In this document: in pieces, positions 336-11,600 of the stretch
Layout: each line of letters begins with the position of its first letter
How positions within the stretch are numbered: position 1 is the first letter of the stretch
From: Diplonema papillatum
Lineage: Eukaryota
Assembly: GCA_030068145.1 (NCBI GenBank)
Contig: JAPJBO010001038.1
Coordinates: 64,001 to 75,600 of the forward strand
Direction: 5' to 3'
Length of the DNA: 11,600 bases
Made by a program: the position numbers and the translations under genes
Notes under the pieces: generated by a model
The model's input: only the letters and a program-made list of their open reading frames with translations
Database searches by the model: none
What the model was told of the DNA's origin: nothing

Positions 336-530
336 ACGAGCAGCTATTTAGTAAGTGGCGAGGTCCAAAACCATGAAAATTGGGTTTCACCTATCTTTTC
401 CTCCTCAGTCGAAAACTAGGCCGGAAAATGAAATTCCTGTCCCCAGAGGACCCTTCAGGGCCCCCATGCATGGGTGCATGCTGCCGGCTTACCTCAGTTT
501 CATTTTTGTCGAAAAAAGTTTGCCCCCCCC

Positions 531-629
531 TAGGGCAGTGCTGGCTGCAAACGGCTGCAAACGCGTTTGCACCGATTCTGCAAACGGCAAACGTTTGCAG
601 TGCAAACGTTGCAAACGTTTGCAAACGTC
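531..629. repeat. Left TIR of element A plus its subterminal array of (T)GCAAACG(G/T) repeats.
   Basis: Read directly from the sequence: ctgcaaacggctgcaaacgcgtttgcaccgattctgcaaacggcaaacgtttgcagtgcaaacgttgcaaacgtttgcaaacgtc. Confidence 0.8.
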
Positions 630-755
630 ATTACCGTTTTACAGGGCGTATACGGTGGGAGAGTCTTGGCGGTGTTCCTGTTGTTGTAGTTCAGCCGCAC
701 GAGGGAATCTGCTATTTTTATCCCCATGCTGCTTCGCTTGTTGTCCTTCACTGCG

Positions 756-1151
756 TCATACACCGACCACCCTGGGCTGGCCAATAATATTTTTCTTGGC
801 TACCGCCTGCAATGGCAGCCACTTGGTGCCAAATGCGTGCCACCAGATCTCCCCGAGCCACTTGTTTGCTGCTTTCAAACCTAGTCCCTCTCGTACGGTG
901 AGGCAGTCGGAGTGCTCAGCCAATGCACAGAGCTGGTCGTGTAGTCCGGAAAGAAGCGAGGACCTTCGCAATCCCTCTGTCGCGTTGGTGTAGATCTCCG
1001 TTTTCCACTGCGGGCTGAGAGCGGCGGCGGCTTCGTGGAGGGGACGCCGGTAATAAATCCTCCACAGCAGAAGTCCGACTAAGGGTCCCACAGAAACAAA
1101 GCCTTTTCCTTTGCGGTTTGTCGACATCCCACTGTCACTGCTGCCACTCAC
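756..1151 (-). pseudogene. Degenerate internal ORF of element A. It is a homolog of element B's zinc-finger-like ORF, and the CxxC motif has been lost.
   Basis: The 131-aa ORF contains ...NATEGLRRSSLLSGLHDQ... and ...LLLWRIYYRRPLHEA.... These align with element B's ...NKATGRSFLTMVSVLCGLSAHDE... and ...W/THEA.... The N-termini also match, MSTNRKGKGF versus MANKRKVDAW. The ORF is in the same orientation and position relative to the arrays as in B. Confidence 0.35.
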
Positions 1152-1223
1152 GACAGCATAAATGTCACTTGCCCACGTCTATATCGCTCGCATGTGTCTA
1201 TCCATTGCTAGCCTTGCACTGCA

Positions 1224-1327
1224 CCGTTGCCGTTTGCAAACGTTTGCAAACGGCATCTGCCAGATCTGCAAACGCAAACGCAAACGTTTGCGCAAACGTT
1301 TGCACGTTTGCAGCCAGCACTGTCCTA
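1224..1327. repeat. Right subterminal CGTTTGC/GCAAACG array and TIR of element A.
   Basis: Read directly: cgtttgcaaacgtttgcaaacgg ... ctgcaaacgcaaacgcaaacgtttgcgcaaacgtttgcacgtttgcagccagcactgtccta. Confidence 0.8.
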
Positions 1328-1548
1328 TATATCACCCATTCCACGAAAAAGTGTCACAGATTTTCCGTCTGAAAAGCAGCCCGTTTTGGGTCAAAATTTT
1401 GGAATTTTTGGGAAATTTTTTTTGGGATGGAAAGAGCTATCCCTGGCGATTATGGGCAAGCAATCAGCTCGCGTGGCGACCAAAATCTGGCGTGCAGATG
1501 GACAAAAGGTCGGTTTTTGGGCTGTTTCAAAAACCCAAAAAAACGATT

Positions 1549-1617
1549 TCCGGCGGGAATCGAACCACCGACCCTCAAACCCCTGTGTGGGTGTGGTAAC
1601 CTCTGGACCATGGGCTA
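1549..1617 (-). ncRNA. tRNA-derived, SINE-like Pol III module. It is not a foldable canonical tRNA.
   Basis: The minus strand reads GCCCATGGTCCAGAGGTTACCAC...GGTGGTTCGATTCCCGCCGGAAATCG-TTTTTTT. It has a D-arm-like TGGTCCAGAGGTTA, a canonical B-box GGTTCGATTCC and a T7 terminator. No acceptor or T-stem pairing can be found. Confidence 0.4.
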
Positions 1618-1821
1618 AAAAAACGGCGGAAATTCTTTTTGTTCACTACCGAGTGAGAATTTTTGGACTCATTTTGAGTTCTTCGCAAACCGGGCGAAAT
1701 AAGCTCTGAGAGAGCAGAAATACCGTCCTGGGACACTGGAAACGAGTAAATGACGATCTCGCACTTTCCGATAAGAATTCCAACTGAGCAGGCGCTAAAA
1801 GCGAATTTTGGCCCGAGGTTT

Positions 1822-1904
1822 GGCAACATAGCCTAACGGTTACCGCACCCTCCTGGGCCCCTGTAGGCCATGGTTCGATTCCCCCGGTCCGATTTTTTTT
1901 TTTT
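1822..1904 (+). ncRNA. Second tRNA-derived, SINE-like Pol III module, in inverted orientation to the first. It ends in a T12 run.
   Basis: ACATAGCCTAACGGTTACCGCACCC...GGCCATGGTTCGATTCCCCCGGTCCGA-T12. It shares GGTTACC(A/G)CACCC and the B-box GGTTCGATTCCC with the first copy. No canonical cloverleaf pairing can be found. Confidence 0.4.
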
Positions 1905-2692
1905 GCGATTTTTCGGTGTGAAAAGCAGCCGTCTGGAAATTATTTTCGAGGTCTTTTTGGGAAATCTTTTGGTTTTCGAGTAGTTCTGGGATGCGCGATT
2001 ATGGGCAAGCTGCCAGCTAGCCCAGCGATCAAAATCTGACCCCCTCCTGGATGCAGAGAGAAAAAAAACCGATCTCCAGGACCCCATTTTTTCGGGTGCC
2101 GACCTCCATTTCCGGGGGGGGGGTCGGTCAAAATTTTTATCCGACCAAATATTCGGAAAGCCCTGTCCTCAACGGATTCAAACGTGTCCTCAAAATCTCG
2201 AAACCGACCATTTTCGGACCTGCAGATGGAAATTTTCGGCAGAAATCCGAAAAAAGCCGAAATCTGTGACACTTTTTCGTGGAATGGGTGATATACGGGG
2301 TGTGATCGTAGTGTAAATCTTGTCTATTTTATTATTTTTACGATTTTTCCGAGTCAAGAGGTTGGTAAATTGAAATTCTCAATTTAGCTCTCTAGCGAGC
2401 TATCCCACTTTTCTGGGGCAGGCCGTGGGGTACCCCCACCCCGGACATCTCTACCGTTTTTTTTGGCATTTTTGAGAATTCAAAATTCGTCGAAAAAATT
2501 TCTCACGGCGGACAACGGCGTGGCACAGTCGTCAGCTGACGACGTTCCTTACCTACGGGTGGGAGGTTCGGTTCCCGCCGGTGGACTTTTTTCCGGGTCT
2601 GCACTCAGCATCAAAGGTTCACCAGCGGCGGTCCGGAGGGGCCCTCCCCCCTGGATAAGGGCCCCCAACTTGCCATCATCAAGGTTTTCCGG

Positions 2693-2770
2693 GGGGGAAA
2701 ATCTTAGTTTCGTGTTCAGGCGCTACTTGCCTCTAAGTGTTTGATGCTAGCATCAAGTCTTCTTCGCGGA
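2693..2770. repeat. Dispersed repeat segment of about 80 bp (GGGGGAAAATCTTAGTTT ... GATGCTAGCATCAAGTCTTCTTCG). It is the copy of the segment at about 6178-6258.
   Basis: The matches to 6178-6258 are near-identical at gggggaaaatcttagttt, gcctct and gatgctagcatcaagtcttcttcg. The segment contains the 12-bp palindrome GATGCTAGCATC. Confidence 0.75.
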
Positions 2771-2774
2771 ATGC

Positions 2775-2895
2775 AGAGTCTTTTTTTCTTCTTTTTTCCC
2801 GTTTTCTGTTTTTTTCTGTTCTTTCTTTCGTTGTCGACAATTTCTTTTTCTCCTTTTACTTTTCCTTTTAATTTTAATTTTCTTTACCATGGTAT
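2775..2895 (+). other. Polypyrimidine (CT-rich) tract of about 115 bp, immediately upstream of the satellite.
   Basis: tctttttttcttcttttttcccgttttctgtttttttctgttctttctttcg...ttctttttctccttttacttttccttttaattttaattttctttacc. Confidence 0.6.
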
Positions 2896-2963
2896 TTTTG
2901 GACTTTCTGGTGCCGTAGAGTAGTTCTTCTTTCTCTATGCCGCCCACGTCGATGTTCGTTTAG

Positions 2964-4378
2964 CGGGTTCGGGTTTTCACAAACGCCGAACTGGACAAAA
3001 AGGTTCGGGTTTGCACCAACGCCGGACCTGGGCAAAAGGTGCGGATTTGCACCAACGCCAGGCTGAGCAAAACAATTCGGGTTGGACAAACCGGACCGGC
3101 AAGAAGCTTCGGGTTTGCACAAAAACGCTGGACTGGACAAGAAGGTTCGGGTTTGCACAAACGCCGGACTGGACAAAAAGGTTCGGGTTTGCACAAACGC
3201 CGGACTGGGCAAAAAGGTTCGGGTTTGCACAAACGCCGGACTGGACAAAAAGGTTCGGGTTTGCACAAACGCCGGACTGGACAAAAAGGTTCGGGTTTGC
3301 ACAAACGCCGGACTGGGCAAAAAGGTTCGGGTTTGCGCAAACGCCGGACTGGACAAAAAGGTTCGGGTTTGCACAAACGCCGGACTGGGCAAAAAGGTTC
3401 GGGTTTGCACAAACGCCGGACTGGACAAAAAGGTTCGGGTTTGCACAAACGCCGGACTGGGCAAAAAGGTTCGGGTTTGCGCAAACGCCGGACTGGACAA
3501 AAAGGTTCGGGTTTGCACAAACGCCGGACTGGACAAAAAGGTTCGGGTTTGCGCAAACGCCGGACTGGGTTTGCGCAAACGCCGGACTGGGCAAAAAGGT
3601 TCGGGTTTGCACAAACGCCGGACTGGACAAAAAGGTTCGGGTTTGCACAAACGCCGGACTGGGCAAAAAGGTTCGGGTTTGCGCAAACGCCGGACTGGAC
3701 AAAAAGGTTCGGGTTTGCACAAACGCCGGACTGGACAAAAAGGTTCGGGTTTGCACAAACGCCGGACTGGGCAAAAAGGTTCGGGTTTGCACAAACGCCG
3801 GACTGGACAAAAAGGTTCGGGTTTGCACAAACGCCGGACTGGCAAAAAGGTTCGGGTTTGCACAAACGCCGGACTGGACAAAAAGGTTCGGGTTTGCACA
3901 AACGCCGGACTGGACAAAAAGGTTCGGGTTTGCGCAAACGCCGGACTGGACAAAAAGGTTCGGGTTTGCACAAACGCCGGACTGGACAAAAAGGTTCGGG
4001 TTTGCACAAACGCCGGACTGGACAAAAAGGTTCGGGTTTGCGCAAACGCCGGACTGGGTTTGCGCAAACGCCGGACTGGGCAAAAAGGTTCGGGTTTGCA
4101 CAAACACCGGACTGGACAAAAAGGTTCGGGTTTGCACAAACGCTGGACTGGGCAAAAAGGTTCGGGTTTGCGCAAACGCCGGACTGGACAAAAAGGTTCG
4201 GGTTTGCACAAACGCCGGACTGGACAAAAAGGTTCGGGTTTGCACAAACGCCGGCCTGGGCAAAAAGGTTCGGGTTTGCACAAACGCCGGCCTGGACAAA
4301 AAGGTTCGGGTTTGCACAAACGCCGGACTGGGCAAAAAGGTTCGGGTTTGCGCAAACGCCGGACTGAGCAAAAGGTTA
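2964..4378. repeat. 36-bp satellite (GTTCGGGTTTGCACAAACGCCGGACTGGACAAAAAG), about 39 tandem copies, with a higher-order repeat of about 489 bp. The central copies are homogenised and the edges are degenerate.
   Basis: The 36-bp period is read directly. Unit variants (GCAC/GCGC and GGAC/GGGC) alternate regularly. A truncated roughly 21-bp unit (gcgcaaacgccggactgg|gtttgcgcaaac) recurs at about 3569 and about 4058, which is 489 bp apart. Copies are degenerate at 2964-3130 and 4330-4378. Confidence 0.95.
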
Positions 4379-4749
4379 CCTCTAGACTCGCTAAGGGTGG
4401 TCCTAACACCCATGTACTTCATCGTTTTTGGCCCCTTGCGGGTGTTGTTCAGCCTCAAAATCGGTACAGATGAGGTTATCGAGGGCGTGTGAGCCAGAAG
4501 CTGATCAGAAAGTCACCCAGAAGACGGAAAGCATGGTGAAAAATGGAGATTTCGCCCACCTCGCCAAGACGTCCCAAATCAGCCGACTTCCAGAATTTCT
4601 ACAAAGAGAGTCCCAAATCGGGAGGAAAAATCAGTATAGAGAAAATTTTGGAGCTTTTCTGGGTACAAATGACTGCATCCTGAGTCATTCCTGTCACAGT
4701 CTGACCCTTCTGCCGTCTCTTCCGGCTGTTTTTTGGTGTTTGGATGCCC

Positions 4750-4830
4750 CTGGACCAAACCCGGACCAACCCGGACCATACCCGGACCAACCCGGACCAA
4801 TCCGGACCAGACCCGAACTAGACCCGGTTC
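4750..4830. repeat. Microsatellite of 10-11-bp units, (CCCGGACCAA)n, about 7 copies.
   Basis: ggaccaaacccggaccaacccggaccatacccggaccaacccggaccaatccggaccagacccgaactagacccgg. Confidence 0.85.
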
Positions 4831-4934
4831 TGGGTCAAATGCTGCTGAAAACCCCACGGAGCACTCTATGAAGCCTAAGTTGCCGAATTTACACTAACCA
4901 GGAACAATCAACAACAGCGAGCACTGGACGAGAG

Positions 4935-5240
4935 GTGGGTGGACTCTGGGCCAGGAAGGTGGACACCAAGGAAAATTCTGAACCAGGGAAGGTGGATTCT
5001 GGACCAGGGAGGGTGCATTCCGTACCAGGGAGGGTGGATTCTGGTCCAGGGAGGGTGGCTCCTGGACCAGGGAGGGTAGATTCTGGACCAGGGAGGGTGG
5101 ATGGATCTGGCCCACAGAGGGTGGTTTCTGGACCCGGAAGACGGGGATCTGAACCGCAGAGGTTGCAATAAGGGCCAGGGAGGTGTATTATGGACCACAA
5201 AGGCGAATTCTGGATCATGCATGGCAGATTCTGGTTGACG
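4935..5240. repeat. 21-bp minisatellite (TTCTGGACCAGGGAGGGTGGA)n, about 12 degenerate copies.
   Basis: Units with ctggaccagggagggtgga are read directly. The minus-strand ORFs of PGPESTLPG repeats are translation artifacts, because 21 is divisible by 3. Confidence 0.85.
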
Positions 5241-5298
5241 AAAGGATATTTAGCTCTTTGCCAACACAGACAGATCCCTCATTTTTGCACTTCTGGCC

Positions 5299-6138
5299 TA
5301 GGGCAGTGAAGCTGGTAAACGTTGAGTAAACGCGTTTACTCCAAAATGAGTAAACGTAAACGTTTATAAACGGTAAACGTTTACGTTTACGCGCGGTAAA
5401 CGTTTACTCGCCTACAGAGCACGGTTAGACCATACTTGGCCTCCTGGCGCAGCCCACGTTCCATCAGGCTGTCCATCTCTTTTATGGCGGCGTCAAGCAT
5501 CACCCCACCGAGTTCTTCGGGCGTTGGGGAGGTGTACTCATCGTGTGCTGATAGCCCGCACAGGACCGAAACCATGGTCAGGAACGAACGACCAGTAGCC
5601 TTGTTAAACCCGATGGCTTCTTCATAGAAGAAGTCCCTGATGGCTTCGTGGGTCCACTACAGTGGTAGGAATGGCACCATATTCAGCTGCTTCGTCTTGG
5701 CTTTCTCGTTTTTCTTCTGCTGCCTTCAGCTTGACGACGAAGGCGGGTCACCATGGGATCTTTTGGGGCGCAACCGCCAATGCCGCTGCCTTGGCCGAGC
5801 AGGTGCTCAGCAGAGGCGGTGGAGAAGGCCTTATTGCAGAACTTGCAGGTTACCTTGCGCATCTTCGATCCGGGTACTTCCGTGAATGTCACCCCCTCCC
5901 AGGCGTCTACTTTGCGCTTGTTCGCCATTTGTGACGAAAGGTCCGTCTGGATATTTTAGCGATATTTTACTTAGTTGCCCCTCTTCCTTGATAGATTGCG
6001 TTTCCAGTGGATGCCGCCCTTGATACAGTAAACGCCCACAACGTTTACTCAACGTTTACTCAACGTTTACTCCAAAATGAGTAAACGTAAACGTTTATAA
6101 ACGGTAAACGTTTACCGTTTACCTGGAACACTGCCCTA
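5299..6138. mobile_element. Element B: a non-autonomous DNA transposon of about 0.84 kb from the same family as A. It has TAGGGCAGTG termini, subterminal GTAAACG palindrome arrays and an internal zinc-finger-like ORF.
   Basis: The left end is TAGGGCAGTGAAGCTGGTAAACG (5299-). The right end is CGTTTACCTGGAACACTGCCCTA (-6138). The arrays run from about 5315-5410 and 6026-6120 and carry GTAAACG/CGTTTAC motifs, many as GTAAACGTTTAC. A 52-bp subterminal stretch (cgtttactccaaaatgagtaaacgtaaacgtttataaacggtaaacgtttac) is present in direct orientation at both ends. It has the same layout as element A. Confidence 0.65.
5683..5928 (-). CDS. Zinc-finger-like (CxxC...H, BED/C2H2-like with the last ligand missing) basic ORF inside element B. 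It may be the remnant N-terminal DNA-binding domain of a transposase.
   Basis: The 81-aa ORF is MANKRKVDAWEGVTFTEVPGSKMRKVTCKFCNKAFSTASAEHLLGQ.... The stretch AW.GVTF ... CKFC ... TASAEHL resembles the BED finger consensus (W.HF ... CxxC ... H). It ends in an arginine/lysine-rich tail, RLRRQAEGSRRKTRKPRRSS. It may splice via GTGACC ... TGTAG to the downstream ORF at 5387-5575, giving ...PM|WTHEAIRDFFYEEAIGFNKATGRSFLTMVSVLCGLSAHDE.... This is supported by the contiguous homologous sequence in element A's ORF. Confidence 0.35.
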   Translation of the reverse strand: MANKRKVDAWEGVTFTEVPGSKMRKVTCKFCNKAFSTASAEHLLGQGSGIGGCAPKDPMVTRLRRQAEGSRRKTRKPRRSS

Positions 6139-6177
6139 GGGGGGAAAATCTTAGTTTAATGTTTAGGCCCTAGGGGG

Positions 6178-6258
6178 GGAAAATCTTAGTTTAGTGTTTA
6201 GGCAGAGCACTGCCTCTCATGCATGGTTGATGCTAGCATCAAGTCTTCTTCGAGGAAG
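6178..6258. repeat. Copy of the roughly 80-bp GGGGGAAAATCTTAGTTT ... GATGCTAGCATCAAGTCTTCTTCG segment.
   Basis: A 37-bp tandem duplication of ccctaggggggaaaatcttagttta(a/g)tgtttaggc sits at about 6132-6205 and precedes it. The segment matches 2693-2770. Confidence 0.75.
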
Positions 6259-6664
6259 ATGTCGTCTAGGAAAGGGATGCAAAATAGAAAATAGAAAGTT
6301 GTAAAGAGGGGAGTGTACGGCTCCCAAAGTGGGGAATGAAACCTTGAGGCCCTGTATTTTTTTCACCGCGGTGTTGTGTGCACCTCGTTCTTCGTCTCAT
6401 GTTTCGCTCTTGAACGCAGACCAATCCAAAGTCAGAGCTCATCAGTGGGTCCTTTGGATGGGGATTTTCAGTCCTGTTCCGGTGCGAGCACAACTTGGTT
6501 TCATGTGTTTTCCTTCCTTCATTCGTTTTTTTAAAAAAAGGAGGGTTTTGGACAGGGGTTTATACGGGGCTTCGAAAAAATCCTGAGTTCCGGTCTGGGC
6601 TTGTTTTTTTTTTTGCTGCAACTGCATGCTGTATGCCACCTTTGCCTCGTTTTGATCAGCTTCA

Positions 6665-7336
6665 TCAAACTGAACAGTCTTTCAACTGATGCCGTTCCGA
6701 GAGGTGTCGAAAGGTTTTGAGCTCCTCGAGAACAGATCTGTGCTCGTCGTCGGCTCGGGGAAAAACCTCATTCCTGAAATCTGCAATGAAGCGGGCATTG
6801 AGAAAGGGAGGAGAACGTGCGGATCTGCCTTCCTGGGTTGGTCGGACCTTTTCCTCGCCGTAATGGGCGACAAGAATATCAACAAGTCTGACCGCCTCAG
6901 GTTGGTTTCCAGCCACAGGCCCACTCAGGTCAAAAAGGCTGAATCCCTCCATGACACCCAGGTTGCTCTTCAAACCCGAACGAAGGTCAGAGATTAGCCC
7001 GTTAACGTAGGGCGTGGCCACTTCGGCATGATAGGCCTGGACTGTCTGGGGTGTCACGCGGGTAAAGCCTGCTAAACCTTCAGTTGCGCGGTTTATCACG
7101 ACATCGCAAAGGAAGTAGGTCGGGTGATTTTCGTGCAGGAAGTCGTGCAGGGAGTTGGCCTTCTCAACTTCTGAGTACGACTCCTTTGTCCACCGCTCGT
7201 ACTCCGTGTTTGTCCCCTCTTTCGGGACGTTGGTCTGCCGTCCTGTTTGCCGAGATGCGAGCCCGAACATGCTTGCGATGTCCCGGGGAATCCCCTCCTT
7301 CTTTGGATCCACACGCTGTAGCTTCTTTGGTGGCAT
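6665..7336 (-). CDS. Hypothetical protein of 223 aa. The ORF has non-repetitive, compositionally normal sequence and no recognisable family.
   Basis: The ORF runs MPPKKLQRVDPKKEG ... FLNARFIADFRNEVFPRADDEHRSVLEELK.... On the coding strand it is followed by a roughly 75-nt UTR and an A11 run, and preceded by an A14 run. The unit is bracketed by 13-bp direct repeats TGAGTTCCGGTCT at 6584-6596 and 7427-7439. Confidence 0.4.
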   Translation of the reverse strand: MPPKKLQRVDPKKEGIPRDIASMFGLASRQTGRQTNVPKEGTNTEYERWTKESYSEVEKANSLHDFLHENHPTYFLCDVVINRATEGLAGFTRVTPQTVQAYHAEVATPYVNGLISDLRSGLKSNLGVMEGFSLFDLSGPVAGNQPEAVRLVDILVAHYGEEKVRPTQEGRSARSPPFLNARFIADFRNEVFPRADDEHRSVLEELKTFRHLSERHQLKDCSV

Positions 7337-7730
7337 ACTGGCCCTCCCGTTACCGCTCCCACCCGGTAAGCCCCAACCCGAACGCTATGTGGCTTTTTTT
7401 TTTTTTTCCCCCAGACCGGAAGAATTTGAGTTCCGGTCTCTCAGACCGCTAAACTAAGCCCGTATAATCCCCTGGTTTTGGATGGGATTGTGGCTCGTAA
7501 CCAACCGCCACGGGGCACTACTTTCAAGGGTTGAAAGTGTTCAAGCTCTCTCCAGGGAAACGATGTAGCCGTTTGTTGTAAACTTGACAGCACATTCTTC
7601 CCATGAGAGAAGGGACACTTGCACACCCAGTCGTCGTTTTCTCGCAGCACGGTGTAGTAGTGTCCAGCTTGCACTTTCCCTGTGTGGACGATGAAGCCAG
7701 TTACTCTGTAAGTGTCTTCCCCGATCGTAG

Positions 7731-7750
7731 GGGGGGGGGGGGGGGGGGGG
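7731..7750 (+). repeat. G20 homopolymer.
   Basis: Read directly from the sequence. Confidence 0.9.
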
Positions 7751-7806
7751 ATTTACAACTTGTTGGTTATGAGCTGTTCGATCTGGACGTGAAGTGTAGG
7801 CGTGGG

Positions 7807-7830
7807 GGGGGGGGGGGGGGGGTTGATGAA
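7807..7830 (+). repeat. G24 homopolymer, 56 bp downstream of the first.
   Basis: Read directly from the sequence. Confidence 0.9.
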
Positions 7831-7847
7831 AAGCTATCAACTATGAG

Positions 7848-9208
7848 CTACGTGTGGCGAATGGGCTGGACGAGCGTGAAAGTCCAATCAGTACCAGGCG
7901 TTGCGCGGCAACCGTTGGGAGGGGGAACGCCGCCCATACCGGACGCAAGGGCAAGCATTTGGCCGTTCCCATCGAACACGAGCTTGTGCCGCTCGCGTGT
8001 GTTGTACGTTGTAGATGTTCCATCCGGATGGGCCACGGTCGAGGTGAACGGCTCTTCCTCTGATTGGTGCCAAGTCTCACCATCGTACGAAAAGGCGTAC
8101 CCAGCAACGATGCGTGTGAAATTCTTCTCGCACAAGGGTTCGTCGCTTGGGTTCCAGTATGCATGGCTGAATATCTTGTAAGCCGCTCGCTGGCTGTCGT
8201 ACCACAAGAATGGGTCCTCCCACGTGACGTTGTCCTTCGTCACGATAATCCCGTTCATGGTTGACATCGTCCATGGGCCTCTGGATGTCTCCCCTCTATA
8301 TAGCGTCCAGTTGCTCGAGCCGCTAGCACCAGTTAACAGCATCGAACCGTTCGAGAACATGAAAGGTGCCGGGTTATTTATGGTGGGCAGTCCGGCATTC
8401 ACGGGAGTCCACGGACCGTAGGGTGACGGGGACTCGTGTAGTAGACTGCTGGTGATGTTTGCGGGGGGGGGTTCGGTTGAATTGTAACCGCAGTATTCAG
8501 GTGTTCCGTGGTCTAAACCGTTTCCGATGTGGTACAACAAATAGTTTGGCCTGCCTGTAGAATTATCAACAACCACCATAGGGTTGTGGGTCCAGTGACG
8601 CATGGCAACGTCGCTGAACTTGTACGGGCCTGTGATATTTTCTGATACGGCGTGTGCCACACGACTATTCCGCTGCCATGTGTGCAGACCGCATCCGTTG
8701 ATCATCTCAGCGACATGTAAGTGCCACTTTCCATCAGCCAGCACAGGGACACCTCCCCATGAGGTCACGTTCGGCGAATACCCGTAAGCTCCGCCCGTTG
8801 GAATAGGTAGCAAGTCAAGCTGACCGCACTGCATGCCCTTCCAGCCTTCGTCACATACGCACACCTGTGTCGTTGATATTGTGTCTTACTCGTGCGCACT
8901 AGCGGAACTCCTGCTTTGGTAAGTTTCGTGTAGACGCTGCCAACTACTCATTTTTAGTAAAGTTATCAACAATTCATTGTTTACACAAAGAATTGAGGAC
9001 AGCACATCATTCTTTGAATGTCGGTGAGTTAATTCATGTTTGAACGGCTGGCCAACCAAATGTTGACGCAAGCATACTGGACAGGCTAGGTTGAGAGTTT
9101 ATTCGAGAAGCACACCTCGTTCTCACATGCACCATTGGCGTTGCAGTCAACTTCCGTCTGACAGGTTGCTATGGCGCTGGCTGCGGCCAACGCAAGTAGG
9201 GCGTGCAT
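7848..9208 (-). CDS. Secreted protein gene with two exons. It encodes a signal peptide, an EGF-like module split by the intron, and a large domain with an Asp-box (S-x-D-x-G-x-T-W) and many N-glycosylation sequons. It may be a sialidase-like or BNR beta-propeller glycosidase.
   Basis: Exon 1 (9208..9116) encodes MHALLALAAASAIATCQTEVDCNANGACENE. This is a hydrophobic signal peptide followed by EGF cysteines 1-3. A GT donor (GTGTGC) lies at 9115 and an AG acceptor (cacag) at 8865, giving a 251-nt phase-0 intron. Exon 2 (8864..7848) begins VCVCDEGWKGMQC, which supplies EGF cysteines 4-6 and has the C-x-C-x2-GW-x-G-x2-C pattern. It continues as a 338-aa ORF containing SYDGETW (an Asp-box) and sequons NVT, NIT, NST, NGS, NWT and NFT. 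The reported 'M' start of the exon-2 ORF is actually a GTG codon, consistent with an internal exon. Confidence 0.6.
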
Positions 9209-9861
9209 TGTTGGCCAAACACCCACTGTCAAGTTTGACTTCTCCCTCTTCTGTCGATAGGTTTTGTTGTTGATCTCAGGCTCATGATGTTTGGGAGCTG
9301 CAACTCCCCCACCGGCTCGCTGTTTCTAACGAGGGCGCTAGTCGTAGCGGTGGTTGTGTCTTGCGCTCACTGTTACGAACAATTTGCACATCGGCAACGC
9401 TGTGTTGGAATATTTATTTCAAGTGCCCCAATATCGCTGAGACACCTTTTCCATACGACAACTGCGCTTCGGGCTGACGGGTGGCCATGACAAACAATGC
9501 CGCTGTGTCCAGTCCCTCGGTCGTGTCCAGGGCTTCGTGGTTTTGTGCGGTTGGCGGCTTGGTGGCACGGGATCAATCGGCTTGTTGCGGACCACCTGCA
9601 TGAAGACGCAGAAGCATACTTGTTTTCCGGTAAGGAGTGGGCAGGACGTTTCAAAAGGGGGAAAGAGGAACAGCACGATTGCTGCTTGGCAAATAGTAGG
9701 GACGTTCTTGACTGGAGTGAAAGTTCGTAAGTTAACGTCGTCCTGCTCGATGGTCGCTTCATGCTGCTGCACATCAACCTGTTAATCCTCCTCGGCTGTC
9801 AGCTGCTGACTGGCCTCTAATTGGTCAGGGCGCCTCTTTTTATACTGTGAGCCGTGTTAGA

Positions 9862-10155
9862 TCATACCACACTCCGGAGTCCGTTGGAAAACGAAAAAAC
9901 TGCCGTGATTTCAATAGCAAAGAACCCTGTGCGGAAGTCCCGCATACTCCCACACTGGTCCAGTACCGCATGCAAATAATTAGAGATATGCCCTAAAGGC
10001 ACATCGGCTTTGTACCCTTCCTTTTCTGCCATTTCGTTGGCCTGCTTGGTCCAGAGAATGAACCGTTGTCGGAACCCGGTGGGTTTCTCCTCCAGCACTG
10101 TGAAGGGTACGTTATGCAATTTACCTGGGCCTTGTGCAGGCTGGCAACTCCGCAT
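9862..10155 (-). CDS. Hypothetical ORF of 97 aa. It may be an exon of a gene that also includes the ORF at 10463-10771.
   Basis: It has non-repetitive composition (…NVPFTVLEEKPTGFRQRFILWTKQANEMAEKEGYKADVPLGHISNYLHAVLDQ…). No family is recognised. Confidence 0.25.
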   Translation of the reverse strand: MRSCQPAQGPGKLHNVPFTVLEEKPTGFRQRFILWTKQANEMAEKEGYKADVPLGHISNYLHAVLDQCGSMRDFRTGFFAIEITAVFSFSNGLRSVV

Positions 10156-10462
10156 TCTACTAACTCTCTAGCATGCCGTTCTTGCACCTTAGTCTTTTGG
10201 AACGAAGCATGTGGTACTGACTCTGAAGACGTTGGCAGCGCTGGGAAATACTCGACGTAGCTGCTTCGACTCCGAATGGAAGGGGGGAAATATATACAGA
10301 GGTAAGGGGCAAATACAATCCAAACACAATCTGATTTGTTCTTCGCTTACACCACCGTGGGTTGTTTTCGCACTCAGGACTTTTGACCTGTTGTGTTTGT
10401 GTGATTTGTCGTGTAGGGTAGACCCGCATGACCTCACGTCCGTTCAACACGTGGTTCGGTAG

Positions 10463-10771
10463 TTACAGCACTTGGGATCCCTTCTGTTCTTTGTCGGGCA
10501 GCATCGTCGAGCATTTCCTTTCAAGCTGGCGCTTATGCAAAAAAAAAGTCTTGTCCCAGACTTCGTCAAAACGTGCCTTCCGTTCTGGAAGTAATCGTTC
10601 ACGCAGGCCTTGCATGTGCATTGGCTTCACCGAAGTCACATGCAGGGTGCCTTCTTTTCTGTTTCTGTTTGTGGAAGACGTGAACTGTGTGCGCGTCGCA
10701 AAATTGTATGCTGTTAAATTGCCTCCTTGGAGAGAGTCACTCGGAGCCGTTGTTCCTTCTCCATCTGCCAA
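10463..10771 (-). CDS. Hypothetical ORF of 102 aa.
   Basis: It has non-repetitive composition (…RERLLPERKARFDEVWDKTFFLHKRQLERK…). No family is recognised. It is on the same strand as 9862-10155 and about 300 bp upstream of it. Confidence 0.25.
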   Translation of the reverse strand: MADGEGTTAPSDSLQGGNLTAYNFATRTQFTSSTNRNRKEGTLHVTSVKPMHMQGLRERLLPERKARFDEVWDKTFFLHKRQLERKCSTMLPDKEQKGSQVL

Positions 10772-10904
10772 TTTAACATCTGTTTAATTCATGTCACACC
10801 TACCAAAGGATCATTCACGGTTAGCTCTCCTTAGCTGGCTTGCTGGTACCTTGGGAACGAGCTGACCGCCGGCGAAGTTGGCTGCCCGGCGGCTGCCTCA
10901 ATTG

Positions 10905-11600
10905 GGGAGATCGGTCCTCCTGGCTACCGCAGGTTGCTCCCAGTCGATTTCAGTGTGTGGGGTCTCAATTTCAGTGAGTTTGCGATTCGTCTGGCCTTGG
11001 AGCACTTGAAGGTCGTACTTTCCCCCGACGGGGTTTCCGACTTGTTCCGGTTTTACAGGCTACTTTTTGCTCGCTTTTCGTTGATTCATAAGATCTCTGT
11101 TTCGATCCGACTTTGTACACAAAGTCGGATTGGGTGCTTGCGCCTTCGGCGCTAGAATCTTTTATTAAGAGAGATCGGTCAGGTTGTTCTCAGTCGATTT
11201 CAGTGTGTGGGGTCCCAATCTCAGCGTGTTTGTGATTCGTTCGCAACACTAACAGTTCGTCTGCCTAGGAGCACTTGATTTCAGTGTGTGGGAGTCCCAA
11301 CTTCAGCGTGTTCGTGATTCGTTTGCAACACTATACAGTCGTCTGGCCTTGGAGCACCTGCATCTCGTACTTTCCCTCGATGGGGTTTCCGACTTGTTCC
11401 GGGTTTACAGGCTCCTTTTTGCTCGCTTTTCGCTGATTCATAAGATGTCTGTTTCGTGTGTACAAATCGGTTTCGGTGGTTGCGCCTTCGGCGCTTGAAT
11501 CTTTTATTAAGAGAGATCGCTCAGGTTGTTCTCAGTCGATTTCAGTGTGTGGGGTCCCAATATCAGTTAGTTTGCGATTCGTTTGCAACACTAACAATTC
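10905..11600. repeat. Tandem repeat with units of about 250-340 bp, at least 3 copies, continuing past the window edge. It contains conserved hairpins.
   Basis: Units begin CAGGTTG(C/T)TC(C/T)CAGTCGATTTCAGTGTGTGGGGTC at 10930, 11180 and 11522. Unit 2 carries an internal duplication of about 92 bp. The conserved stem-loop GCGCCTTCGGCGC has a UUCG-type tetraloop. Unit 1 has a perfect 10-bp hairpin CCGACTTTGT-AC-ACAAAGTCGG. Each unit ends ...gaatcttttattaagagagatcg. Confidence 0.85.

What the first reader, a model, noticed from the sequence alone, without database searches (positions are those of the whole stretch)
531..6138. Two paralogous Ds-like non-autonomous transposons (elements A and B) with AAACG-type subterminal palindrome arrays and a zinc-finger ORF remnant
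Elements A (531-1327) and B (5299-6138) share TAGGGCAGTG termini and imperfect TIRs of about 25 bp. Each has dense subterminal arrays of an AAACG-containing palindromic decamer, and each has a homologous minus-strand internal ORF. The decamer has drifted in step on both arms of each element, to GCAAACGTTTGC in A and GTAAACGTTTAC in B. The AAACG(G) subterminal repeats, the YAGGG terminus and the BED-like finger are the hallmarks of Ac/Ds-type hAT elements, where the transposase binds AAACGG repeats. If this is right, the family is a new hAT-like lineage in which the binding-site sequence and the element co-vary. No 8-bp TSD is visible; the flanks are other repeats and poly-C/G.
Basis: partly seen in the sequence, partly recalled or inferred. 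Interest (0 to 1): 0.7.

Follow-up and report, generated by a model that had tools for sequence, protein, structure and literature searches.

The report
Two dead diplonemid hAT transposons
These are two broken ~0.8-kb copies of hAT-type cut-and-paste transposons in a diplonemid protist genome: ordinary in kind, but every putative transposase-binding repeat differs by one base between the two sibling families, and they sit in the 8-bp palindrome CCCTAGGG.

Summary
The sequence features are real. Both elements have inverted ends and dense subterminal arrays, GCAAACG in A and GTAAACG in B, with no mixing.

The hAT reading holds. The internal reading frames match diplonemid proteins that carry DUF659 and the hAT dimerisation domain. 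A profile of those proteins hits Hermes transposase and has an invariant D, D, E.

Three details are wrong.
1. **Ends.** The elements end at CAGTG...CACTG, not TAGGGCAGTG. The outer bases belong to an 8-bp target-site duplication, consensus CCCTAGGG. It is a palindrome, so it looked like a longer inverted repeat. This rests on 17 near-identical autonomous relatives from another diplonemid-like assembly: 16 have perfect direct 8-bp duplications, four of them non-palindromic.
2. **Reading frames.** The two frames are not homologous. B keeps residues 1-185 (zinc finger). A keeps about 10 N-terminal codons plus residues ~464-608 (dimerisation region). Neither has a catalytic core.
3. **Ac/Ds membership.** It is not supported. 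The duplication fits the Buster-type pattern nnnTAnnn.

A third family uses GGAAACG, so families differ only at the base before AAACG.

Verdict: new members of a known superfamily, apparently undescribed in diplonemids. Interest is modest.

The parts
528..535 (.). Left target-site duplication of element A (CCCTAGGG)
   Evidence: Read from the sequence. The boundary is set by homology with the E family, where these 8 bp are a direct duplication.
536..1322 (-). Element A proper (787 bp). Non-autonomous hAT of the GCAAACG family. The transposase sense is on the minus strand.
   Evidence: CAGTG...CACTG ends and an 18-nt perfect TIR, CAGTGCTGGCTGCAAACG, at 536-553 / 1305-1322.
547..640 (.). A, 3'-end subterminal repeat array (10 GCAAACG copies plus one AAAACG variant, both orientations)
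1231..1311 (.). A, 5'-end subterminal repeat array (11 GCAAACG copies)
650..1127 (-). A's transposase remnant. ATG plus about 10 codons lie at 1127-1098. After a deletion, residues ~464-556 (1064-798) follow, then a frameshift, then residues 569-608 (781-662). Both catalytic Asp residues are absent and the ER-WS motif is destroyed.
   Evidence: tblastn with the E-family protein, P0003, P0001 (69% identity) and P0004; alignment.
1323..1330 (.). Degenerate right target-site duplication of A (TCCTATAT). Element C (1328-2295) runs into it.
   Evidence: I1. It matches the left copy at only 4 of 8 positions. If C is removed, TCCTA+CGG gives 6 of 8. This is inference.
5296..5303 (.). Left target-site duplication of element B (GCCTAGGG)
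   Evidence: boundary set by homology with the E family.
5304..6133 (-). Element B proper (830 bp). Non-autonomous hAT of the GTAAACG family.
   Evidence: CAGTG...CACTG ends. At 5304-5321 / 6116-6133 the TIR is CAGTG, then 5 unmatched bases, then GGTAAACG.
5315..5407 (.). B, 3'-end subterminal repeat array (GTAAACG, two ATAAACG)
6028..6122 (.). B, 5'-end subterminal repeat array (GTAAACG, two ATAAACG)
5758..5928 (-). B's transposase remnant, residues 1-61: a CCHC zinc finger in the BED position
   Evidence: 72% identical to D. papillatum KAJ9440102.1 and 49% to the E family. zf-BED E=0.043, below the Pfam cut-off. C, C, H, C are conserved.
5417..5722 (-). B's transposase remnant, residues 78-185 (the FFYEE region). 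It is in another frame with an in-frame stop, and it ends 2 residues before the first catalytic Asp.
6134..6141 (.). Right target-site duplication of B (CCCTAGGG)
   Evidence: matches the left copy at 7 of 8 positions.

Best explanation
A (536-1322) and B (5304-6133) are decayed internal-deletion derivatives of two sibling hAT transposon families in a diplonemid (Euglenozoa) genome.

Each keeps the cis-acting parts:
- a CAGTG terminus;
- a G at nt 12 and the first AAACG at nt 14-18;
- about 100 bp of subterminal G-N-AAACG repeats at each end, many paired as palindromes.

Each also keeps a different scrap of the transposase gene, and neither scrap can encode an enzyme.

They could move only if a full-length partner supplied the transposase. 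The inferred mechanism has three steps:
1. The N-terminal BED-like CCHC finger reads the subterminal repeats.
2. The DDE core cuts at CAGTG.
3. The element is pasted with an 8-bp staggered cut, here at the near-fixed palindrome CCCTAGGG.

Every repeat in a family carries the same base before AAACG: C in A, T in B, G in the autonomous E family. This most likely marks which transposase recognises which element.

Shown: the anatomy, hAT homology, an intact autonomous relative, and the 8-bp duplication in that relative.
Inferred: boundaries and duplication in A and B, finger-repeat recognition, and family-specific recognition.
For: **Anatomy and statistics.**

**Homology.** A full HMMER scan with the concatenated remnants gave 17 hits. 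Pfam finds DUF659 and Dimer_Tnp_hAT in seven of them, including P0003 and P0004, which match both halves of the query. The closest are Diplonema papillatum, Rhynchopus euleeides and D. ambulator proteins. A profile of eight full-length relatives hits Hermes transposase at E=6.5e-17, and D187, D249 and E570 are invariant.

**Remnant mapping.** B covers residues 1-185 and A covers residues ~464-608.

**Autonomous relative (E family, assembly ERZ25333236).**
- It is 2714 bp, and 15 copies are 99.94% identical.
- It encodes a 633-aa transposase once a 43-nt GT..AG intron is removed.
- It has the same CAGTG end, G12 and AAACG at nt 14-18, and 16 of 20 subterminal motifs are GGAAACG.
- 16 of 17 copies have perfect direct 8-bp duplications. 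Four are non-palindromic: ACCTAGGG, CCCTAGGT, CCCTGGGG and CTCTAGAC. Thirteen of 17 are CCCTAGGG.
- CCCTAGGG is rare: 41 sites in 145 kb, of which 29 lie next to an element end.

**End architecture.** The 5' and 3' ends differ from each other, and each is conserved across the three families.

**Finger.** zf-BED is the top, sub-threshold Pfam hit in five independent members, E=0.043 to 0.0011.

**Precedents.** Ac transposase binds subterminal AAACGG hexamers, and Ds-del elements are internal deletions of Ac (PMC3260210). The Hermes BED domain binds a quasi-palindromic subterminal repeat pair at nt 11-27 (bioRxiv 10.1101/2022.09.16.508221).
Against: - Inside the window the duplication cannot be told from a TIR extension. 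B's two copies match 7 of 8 whether read directly or inverted.
- A's right copy matches only 4 of 8 and is overlapped by element C.
- No autonomous partner with GCAAACG or GTAAACG repeats was found.
- The source genome could not be searched, so copy number, insertion polymorphism and mobility of A and B are untested.
- The finger scores below Pfam's threshold, and two structure models were too poor to use (pLDDT 61-63).
- The organism behind ERZ25333236 is unnamed. I call it diplonemid-like only because one of its proteins is 60-62% identical to Diplonema proteins.
Confidence: 0.88

Rival explanations
1. One reading: Ac/Ds-type elements whose termini are TAGGGCAGTG and which make no target-site duplication, so a hAT-like lineage with an aberrant insertion mechanism.
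For: TAGGGCAGTG stands at all four ends. The flanks look like inverted C and G runs (I4).
Against: In the E family the bases outside CAGTG vary from copy to copy and are repeated directly on both sides: L006, L007, L012 and L013, the last with CTCTAGAC on both sides. The C and G runs come from neighbouring elements and homopolymer tracts that together create CCCTAGGG.
Confidence: 0.03
2. A's left end and B's right end bound one 5.6-kb composite element (531-6138). The inner ends would be internal debris.
For: Arms 525-554 and 6115-6144 are 80% complementary (I4).
Against: That similarity is only CAGTG plus the palindromic target. Each element has its own 5'-type and 3'-type end and a uniform motif variant, GC or GT, at both of its ends. 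The interval between them holds an unrelated TIR element and a 1.4-kb satellite.
Confidence: 0.03
3. TA-target elements: the elements would start at GGGCAGTG and duplicate only TA, as Tc1/mariner does, or would be joined through non-templated G-tailing.
For: Neighbouring repeats share a single TA at their junctions. In 47 G or C runs of at least 8 nt, 18 have TA on the 5' side and 22 on the 3' side. In the first eight E copies, one side carried a long run.
Against: Four copies have non-palindromic 8-bp direct repeats. L013 lies in unique sequence with no run. The transposase is hAT, not Tc1/mariner.
Confidence: 0.02
4. The one-base difference between families is neutral concerted drift, through repeat turnover or gene conversion within an element. 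It would carry no change in transposase specificity, and one transposase would mobilise all three types.
For: [quoted passage not shown] B itself carries 4 ATAAACG variants. No finger is available for the A family.
Against: The base is uniform within each family at both ends: 21 of 22, 19 of 24 and 16 of 20. The B-type finger, and its D. papillatum relative P0005, share a 4-residue deletion just before the zinc-binding His, where the E-family model places a helix. This is suggestive only.
Confidence: 0.35

Closest known systems
Ac/Ds of maize (hAT, Ac family), especially Ds-del elements
   Same: Non-autonomous internal-deletion derivatives that keep both ends. Multiple subterminal repeats with an AAACG core lie within about 100-200 bp of each end, and the transposase binds such repeats in Ac. 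Both make an 8-bp duplication (PMC3260210).
   Different: The terminus is CAGTG, not C/TAGGGATGAAA. The repeat is G-N-AAACG and is often palindromic. [quoted passage not shown] The host is a euglenozoan protist.
Buster-family hAT elements (TcBuster, Mar MITEs)
   Same: An 8-bp duplication with a central TA, consensus nnnTAnnn (PMC3517528, PMC3499496). Sixteen of 17 E-family duplications have TA at positions 4-5, as do all four copies in the window.
   Different: Here all eight positions are nearly fixed. The position of the transposase in the hAT tree was not tested. Pfam sees DUF659 in these proteins.
Hermes (hAT) transposase and its BED-subterminal repeat complex
   Same: A profile of the diplonemid transposases matches Hermes around the first catalytic Asp and in the C-terminal region that holds the invariant Glu. 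In Hermes, BED domains bind a quasi-palindromic repeat pair at nt 11-27 of the left end. Here the first repeat starts at nt 12-18 and the palindromes follow.
   Different: The match covers only about 180 residues of Hermes. The repeat sequence differs (AAGT in Hermes). DNA binding is not shown here.
E family, an autonomous hAT in ENA assembly ERZ25333236
   Same: Same CAGTG end, G12, AAACG at nt 14-18 and 5'/3' end architecture. Its transposase is 41-49% identical to B's remnant and 34-48% to A's.
   Different: It is intact (2714 bp, 633-aa transposase) with at least 17 nearly identical copies. Its repeat is GGAAACG. It comes from a different organism.

Membership tests
hAT superfamily | 8-bp target-site duplication | tested here: met
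   In the E family, 16 of 17 copies have perfect direct 8-bp repeats, 4 of them non-palindromic. B's copies match 7 of 8. A's match 4 of 8 and the right copy is disrupted. In the window alone this is not discriminating; the boundary comes from homology.
hAT superfamily | Short terminal inverted repeats (10-25 bp, PMC3942097) beginning CAG or TAG | tested here: met
   A has an 18-nt perfect TIR, CAGTGCTGGCTGCAAACG. B and E have CAGTG(C) plus a conserved G12 and AAACG.
hAT superfamily | DDE transposase with a C-terminal hAT dimerisation domain | tested here: met
   Met in relatives, not in A or B themselves. PF05699 and PF04937 are above cut-off. The profile hits Hermes at E=6.5e-17 with D187, D249 and E570 invariant. 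A keeps only the dimerisation region, with the ER-WS motif lost. B keeps no catalytic residue.
hAT superfamily | N-terminal BED-type zinc finger | tested here: inconclusive
   C-x2-C...H...C is conserved. zf-BED is the best Pfam hit in 5 members, but all score below 20.6 bits (E=0.043 to 0.0011). The AlphaFold models reached pLDDT 61-63 and Foldseek gave nothing at E<=0.001.
hAT superfamily | Subterminal repeats that bind the transposase | not testable with these tools
   The repeats are present and highly enriched. Binding needs an experiment.
   TAGGG lies outside the element; the terminus is CAGTG (PMC3260210).
The consensus nTnnnnAn is quoted from my own knowledge of Arensburger et al. 2011, which I did not read here. 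| tested here: not met
   The consensus is CCCTAGGG, with C at position 2 and G at position 7.
   No Buster or Tip reference sequences were available. Only Hermes could be compared.
Buster family of hAT | Target duplication consensus nnnTAnnn (PMC3517528, PMC3499496) | tested here: met
   TA stands at positions 4-5 in 16 of 17 E-family duplications and in all four window copies.
Buster family of hAT | Transposase groups with Buster elements in a phylogeny | not tested
   No reference sequences were at hand.
Ds-del-type non-autonomous derivative | Both ends of the autonomous element are kept and part of the transposase gene is deleted | tested here: met
   A keeps the 5' region, about 10 codons and residues ~464-608. 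B keeps the 5' region and residues 1-185. Both have 5'-type and 3'-type ends.

The most novel reading that the evidence does not exclude
Diplonemids may carry a clade of hAT transposons with two unusual properties.

1. **Orthogonal sibling families.** Families would be kept apart by a single base in every transposase-binding repeat (G-C/T/G-AAACG), matched by changes in the BED-like finger.
2. **An almost fully specified palindromic 8-bp target, CCCTAGGG.** This target is created where other elements ending in ...CCCTA meet G runs. New copies would therefore stack end to end on older repeats and build repeat islands.

That would give a natural set of transposase/end pairs with switchable specificity, and a site-specific hAT.
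Probability: 0.35. Interest if true: 0.55.

Novelty: new member of a known kind. Interest (0 to 1): 0.35.

Why it matters
- **Gap in the record.** The literature I could search does not describe hAT elements in diplonemids. The D. papillatum genome paper lists TATE, MULE and Helitron-like ORFs and does not contain 'hAT' in its text or eight supplements (PMC10161547). Trypanosomatids are reported to lack class II elements altogether (PMC12278014). These elements, and the very young autonomous E family, add a regular and probably active DNA-transposon superfamily to this abundant marine group.
- **A possible tool.** D. papillatum has been transformed in gene-replacement experiments (PMC10161547), so an active element of this kind could in principle serve as a genetic tool.
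- **Two details worth follow-up.** One is the one-base partition of binding repeats between sibling families. The other is the near-fixed palindromic target, which also explains why the elements seemed to lack a duplication.
- **A lesson for annotation.** A palindromic target can pass for a longer inverted repeat and hide the target-site duplication.

Tried and rejected
1. **Word-indexed protein searches.** B's stitched remnant found nothing. The profile of alignment A2 found only three proteins. The exhaustive HMMER scan was what worked.
2. **Exact-protein look-ups.** P0003, P0001, P0004 and window ORF 6665-7336 are not on record. The source contig was therefore never found, and copy number could not be measured.
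4. **Metagenome scan** for CCTAGGGCAGTG-N8-AAACG. It gave eight hits, none with a subterminal array, so all are chance.
5. **G-tailing idea.** I considered that the C and G runs are non-templated G tails added to an excised element, or part of the TIR, and that TA is the duplication. I rejected this once the non-palindromic 8-bp direct repeats were seen.
6. **Composite element** made of A's left end and B's right end. Rejected on end architecture.
7. **Structure prediction of the finger.** The B version reached pLDDT 61.5 and the E version 63.0. The Foldseek search of the E model against PDB gave no match at E<=0.001. No conclusion can be drawn.
8. **tRNA and Rfam scans of the window.** Nothing found.
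9. **Species of the window.** The host ORF 7848-8864 is only 50% identical to D. japonicum and D. ambulator proteins, and no D. papillatum protein was listed. The species stays open.
Full report
**1. The observation**

The window is repeat-rich eukaryotic DNA of about 51% G+C.

- TAGGGCAGTG, allowing one mismatch, occurs four times, only at these four ends, against 0.49 expected.
- AAACGTTT occurs ten times against 0.58 expected, always within about 110 bp of an element end.
- GCAAACG occurs 33 times against 2.9 expected: 21 in A, 10 in the 36-bp satellite, 2 near the window's end, and none in B.
- GTAAACG occurs 19 times against 1.2 expected, all in B.
- Of the AAACG motifs within 260 nt of the ends, 21 of 22 in A are preceded by GC. 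In B, 19 of 24 are preceded by GT and 4 by AT.

So the arrays and the change in step are real.

**2. The internal reading frames**

A DNA alignment of A and B matches only the roughly 100-bp ends and about 30 nt after the ATG. Pfam on the raw ORFs gave only a weak zf-BED hit for B (E=0.043), and a word-indexed search found nothing.

An exhaustive HMMER scan with the concatenated, frame-corrected remnants found 17 proteins.
- Seven of them carry DUF659 and the hAT dimerisation domain above Pfam's cut-offs, including P0003 and P0004, which match both halves of the query.
- The closest are Diplonema papillatum hypothetical proteins: KAJ9457408.1, 69-70% identical to A's remnant; KAJ9440102.1, 72-73% identical to B's; and KAJ9447149.1, a full-length 632-aa protein. 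Transcripts of Rhynchopus euleeides and D. ambulator also match.

By tblastn:
- B holds residues 1-61 and 78-185 of a 633-aa relative. The two pieces are in different frames and one has an internal stop. B ends two residues before the first catalytic Asp.
- A holds the ATG plus about ten codons, then residues 464-556 and 569-608, again with a frameshift. The ER-WS motif is lost.

The two ORFs are therefore complementary scraps, not homologues, and only B has the finger.

**3. Superfamily membership**

A profile of eight full-length relatives hits Hermes transposase at E=6.5e-17, matching around the first catalytic Asp and in the C-terminal region. D187, D249 and E570 are invariant in the alignment.

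The N-terminal C-x2-C...H...C finger gives zf-BED as the top Pfam hit in five independent members, always below threshold. Two AlphaFold models were too uncertain to use (pLDDT 61.5 and 63.0), and the one fold search I ran, on the E model, found nothing. 'BED-like' therefore remains probable, not shown.

**4. An autonomous relative and the true boundaries**

P0002 and its cluster-mate P0018 are encoded on 27 contigs of ENA assembly ERZ25333236. I fetched 17 copies.
- The element (E family) is 2714 bp, and 15 copies are 99.94% identical.
- It encodes an intact 633-aa transposase once a 43-nt GT..AG intron is removed.

Its ends read ...TAGGG|CAGTG, as in the window. At first they seemed to be flanked by C runs on the left and G runs on the right, with no duplication. 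The table of all 17 copies settles the matter.
- The element ends at CAGTG...CACTG, and the 8 bp outside are a direct duplication in 16 of 17 copies.
- Thirteen copies have CCCTAGGG. This is its own reverse complement, which is why it looked like a longer inverted repeat.
- Four are non-palindromic and identical on both sides: ACCTAGGG, CCCTAGGT, CCCTGGGG, and CTCTAGAC in unique sequence.

CCCTAGGG is rare. There are 41 sites in the 145 kb held, and 29 of them lie next to an element end. The preference is therefore strong.

The runs have a simple origin. Other repeats that end in ...CCCTA sit next to G runs, and the junction makes the target.

**5. Back to the window**

By homology, A is 536-1322 with flanks CCCTAGGG / TCCTATAT, and B is 5304-6133 with flanks GCCTAGGG / CCCTAGGG. 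B's copies match at 7 of 8 positions. A's right copy is degenerate and is overlapped by a separate element with perfect 36-nt inverted repeats (1328-2295).

Within the window alone these flanks cannot prove a duplication, because they are near-palindromic. The boundary is an inference from the E family.

**6. Architecture and the variable base**

Aligning the six ends of A, B and E gives these invariants: CAGTG (nt 1-5), G12 and AAACG (nt 14-18). Only nt 13 differs: C in A, T in B, G in E. The same base is used in nearly every repeat of a family.
- The 5' ends have a motif directly followed by a palindrome.
- The 3' ends have a motif, a short spacer, then NNAAACGCGTTTNN.
- Each end type is recognisable in all three families. 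The windows' right-hand ends are the 5' ends, in line with the minus-strand ORFs.

**7. Mechanism**

Established knowledge:
- Ac transposase binds subterminal AAACGG hexamers cooperatively (PMC3260210).
- The Hermes BED domain binds a quasi-palindromic subterminal repeat pair at nt 11-27 (bioRxiv 10.1101/2022.09.16.508221).
- hAT elements have short TIRs and 8-bp duplications (PMC3942097).

From this I infer that a partner transposase's finger reads G-N-AAACG, that the DDE core cuts at CAGTG, and that the element is inserted with an 8-bp stagger. A and B cannot make the enzyme.

I rate the idea that the variable base sets family specificity at about even odds. One hint is that B's finger and its D. 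papillatum relative share a 4-residue deletion just before the zinc-binding His.

**8. Comparison and novelty**

These elements work like Ds-del elements. They are not members of the Ac/Ds family as claimed. The terminus differs, and the duplication fits the Buster-type nnnTAnnn pattern (PMC3517528, PMC3499496), though far more strictly. The position of the transposase in the hAT tree was not tested.

On the record for this host group:
- The D. papillatum genome paper mentions TATE, MULE and Helitron-like ORFs and not hAT.
- Full-text searches for Diplonema or diplonemid together with hAT and transposon returned nothing.
- Trypanosomatids are reported to lack class II elements.

This is therefore a new member of a known kind in a host group where I found none described. 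The strict palindromic target and the one-base family code are the features worth following up.

**9. Host and limits**

The neighbouring ORF 7848-8864 (minus strand) is 50% identical to D. japonicum and D. ambulator proteins and to a protein of ERZ25333236. The window is therefore diplonemid, but the species is undetermined. The source genome could not be searched, so copy number and mobility of A and B are unknown.

Noticed in passing
window 1328-2295: A separate 968-bp element with perfect 36-nt inverted repeats (TATATCACCCATTCC...). It begins within the 8 bp read as A's right target duplication. It has no 8-bp duplication; the flanks suggest TA or TATA. It contains tRNA-like strings, for example GGTTCGATTCCC near 1872, and a 42-nt imperfect inverted match 1533-1574 / 2557-2598. 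ARAGORN and Rfam call nothing.
   Followed up: partly
window 2966-4377: A 36-bp satellite of about 39 units (GGTTCGGGTTTGCACAAACGCCGGACTGGACAAAAA) with higher-order structure: 22-bp short units at 3545-3591 and 4034-4080, 489 bp apart. A minority unit, TTTGCGCAAACG, carries the A-family motif GCAAACG (10 copies). It might derive from hAT subterminal repeats, or the match may be chance.
   Followed up: partly
window 6133-6203: A 35-bp tandem duplication starts inside B's last bases. It creates a second, unoccupied CCCTAGGG at 6168-6175, followed by the start of another repeat (GGGGGGGAAAATCTTAGTTT). That repeat also occurs at 2692-2771 and 6174-6257.
   Followed up: partly
L001-L017 (ERZ25333236) and window 523-530, 7730-7750, 7804-7822: Long G or C homopolymer runs (8 to more than 40 nt) are frequent. 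Oriented as G runs, 18 of 47 follow a repeat end (...CCCTA) and 22 of 47 precede TA, often TAGGGG..., the start of a roughly 1.2-kb foldback-type repeat. Several repeats have runs of the same base on both sides, as expected for insertion into a run with an all-G 8-bp duplication.
   Followed up: partly
L006 about 8287-10950: A second hAT family. It has a 712-aa DUF659 ORF, ends TAAGAATACCCCTTGTCC..., and subterminal repeat GGACGAAAAA (not AAACG). It is flanked by G13 and G18, which suggests a G-run target.
   Followed up: partly
L007 8657-9362: A roughly 0.7-kb non-coding element with the same CAGTG end (CAGTGATTA...) and CCCTAGGG on both sides, but with GAATTCTATA-type subterminal repeats. 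It is a MITE that shares the target and tip but not the AAACG repeats.
   Followed up: no
L008 7553-7672, L014 about 1170-1230: A 22-bp tandem repeat, CGTAATTACG(G/T)ACCCTAGGGT(A/C), supplies many CCCTAGGG sites. In L014 the E element sits in one of them.
   Followed up: no
window 6540-7480: ORF 6665-7336 (minus strand, 223 aa, no family match) is bracketed by inverted repeats 6553-6568/7459-7474 and 6588-6599/7410-7421 and by T/A tracts. It may be another mobile unit.
   Followed up: no
window 7848-8864 (minus strand): A 338-aa ORF with an EGF-like start. It is 50% identical to Diplonema japonicum and D. ambulator proteins and distantly similar to bacterial glycoside hydrolase (PF04616) proteins. 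It is probably a host carbohydrate-active enzyme gene of the kind reported as horizontally acquired in D. papillatum.
   Followed up: partly
window 4752-4827, 4975-5134, 10930-11600: Further repeat arrays: a 10/21-bp GGACCAACCC array, a 21-bp ATTCTGGACCAGGGAGGGTGG array, and copies of a roughly 342-bp repeat at the window's end.
   Followed up: no
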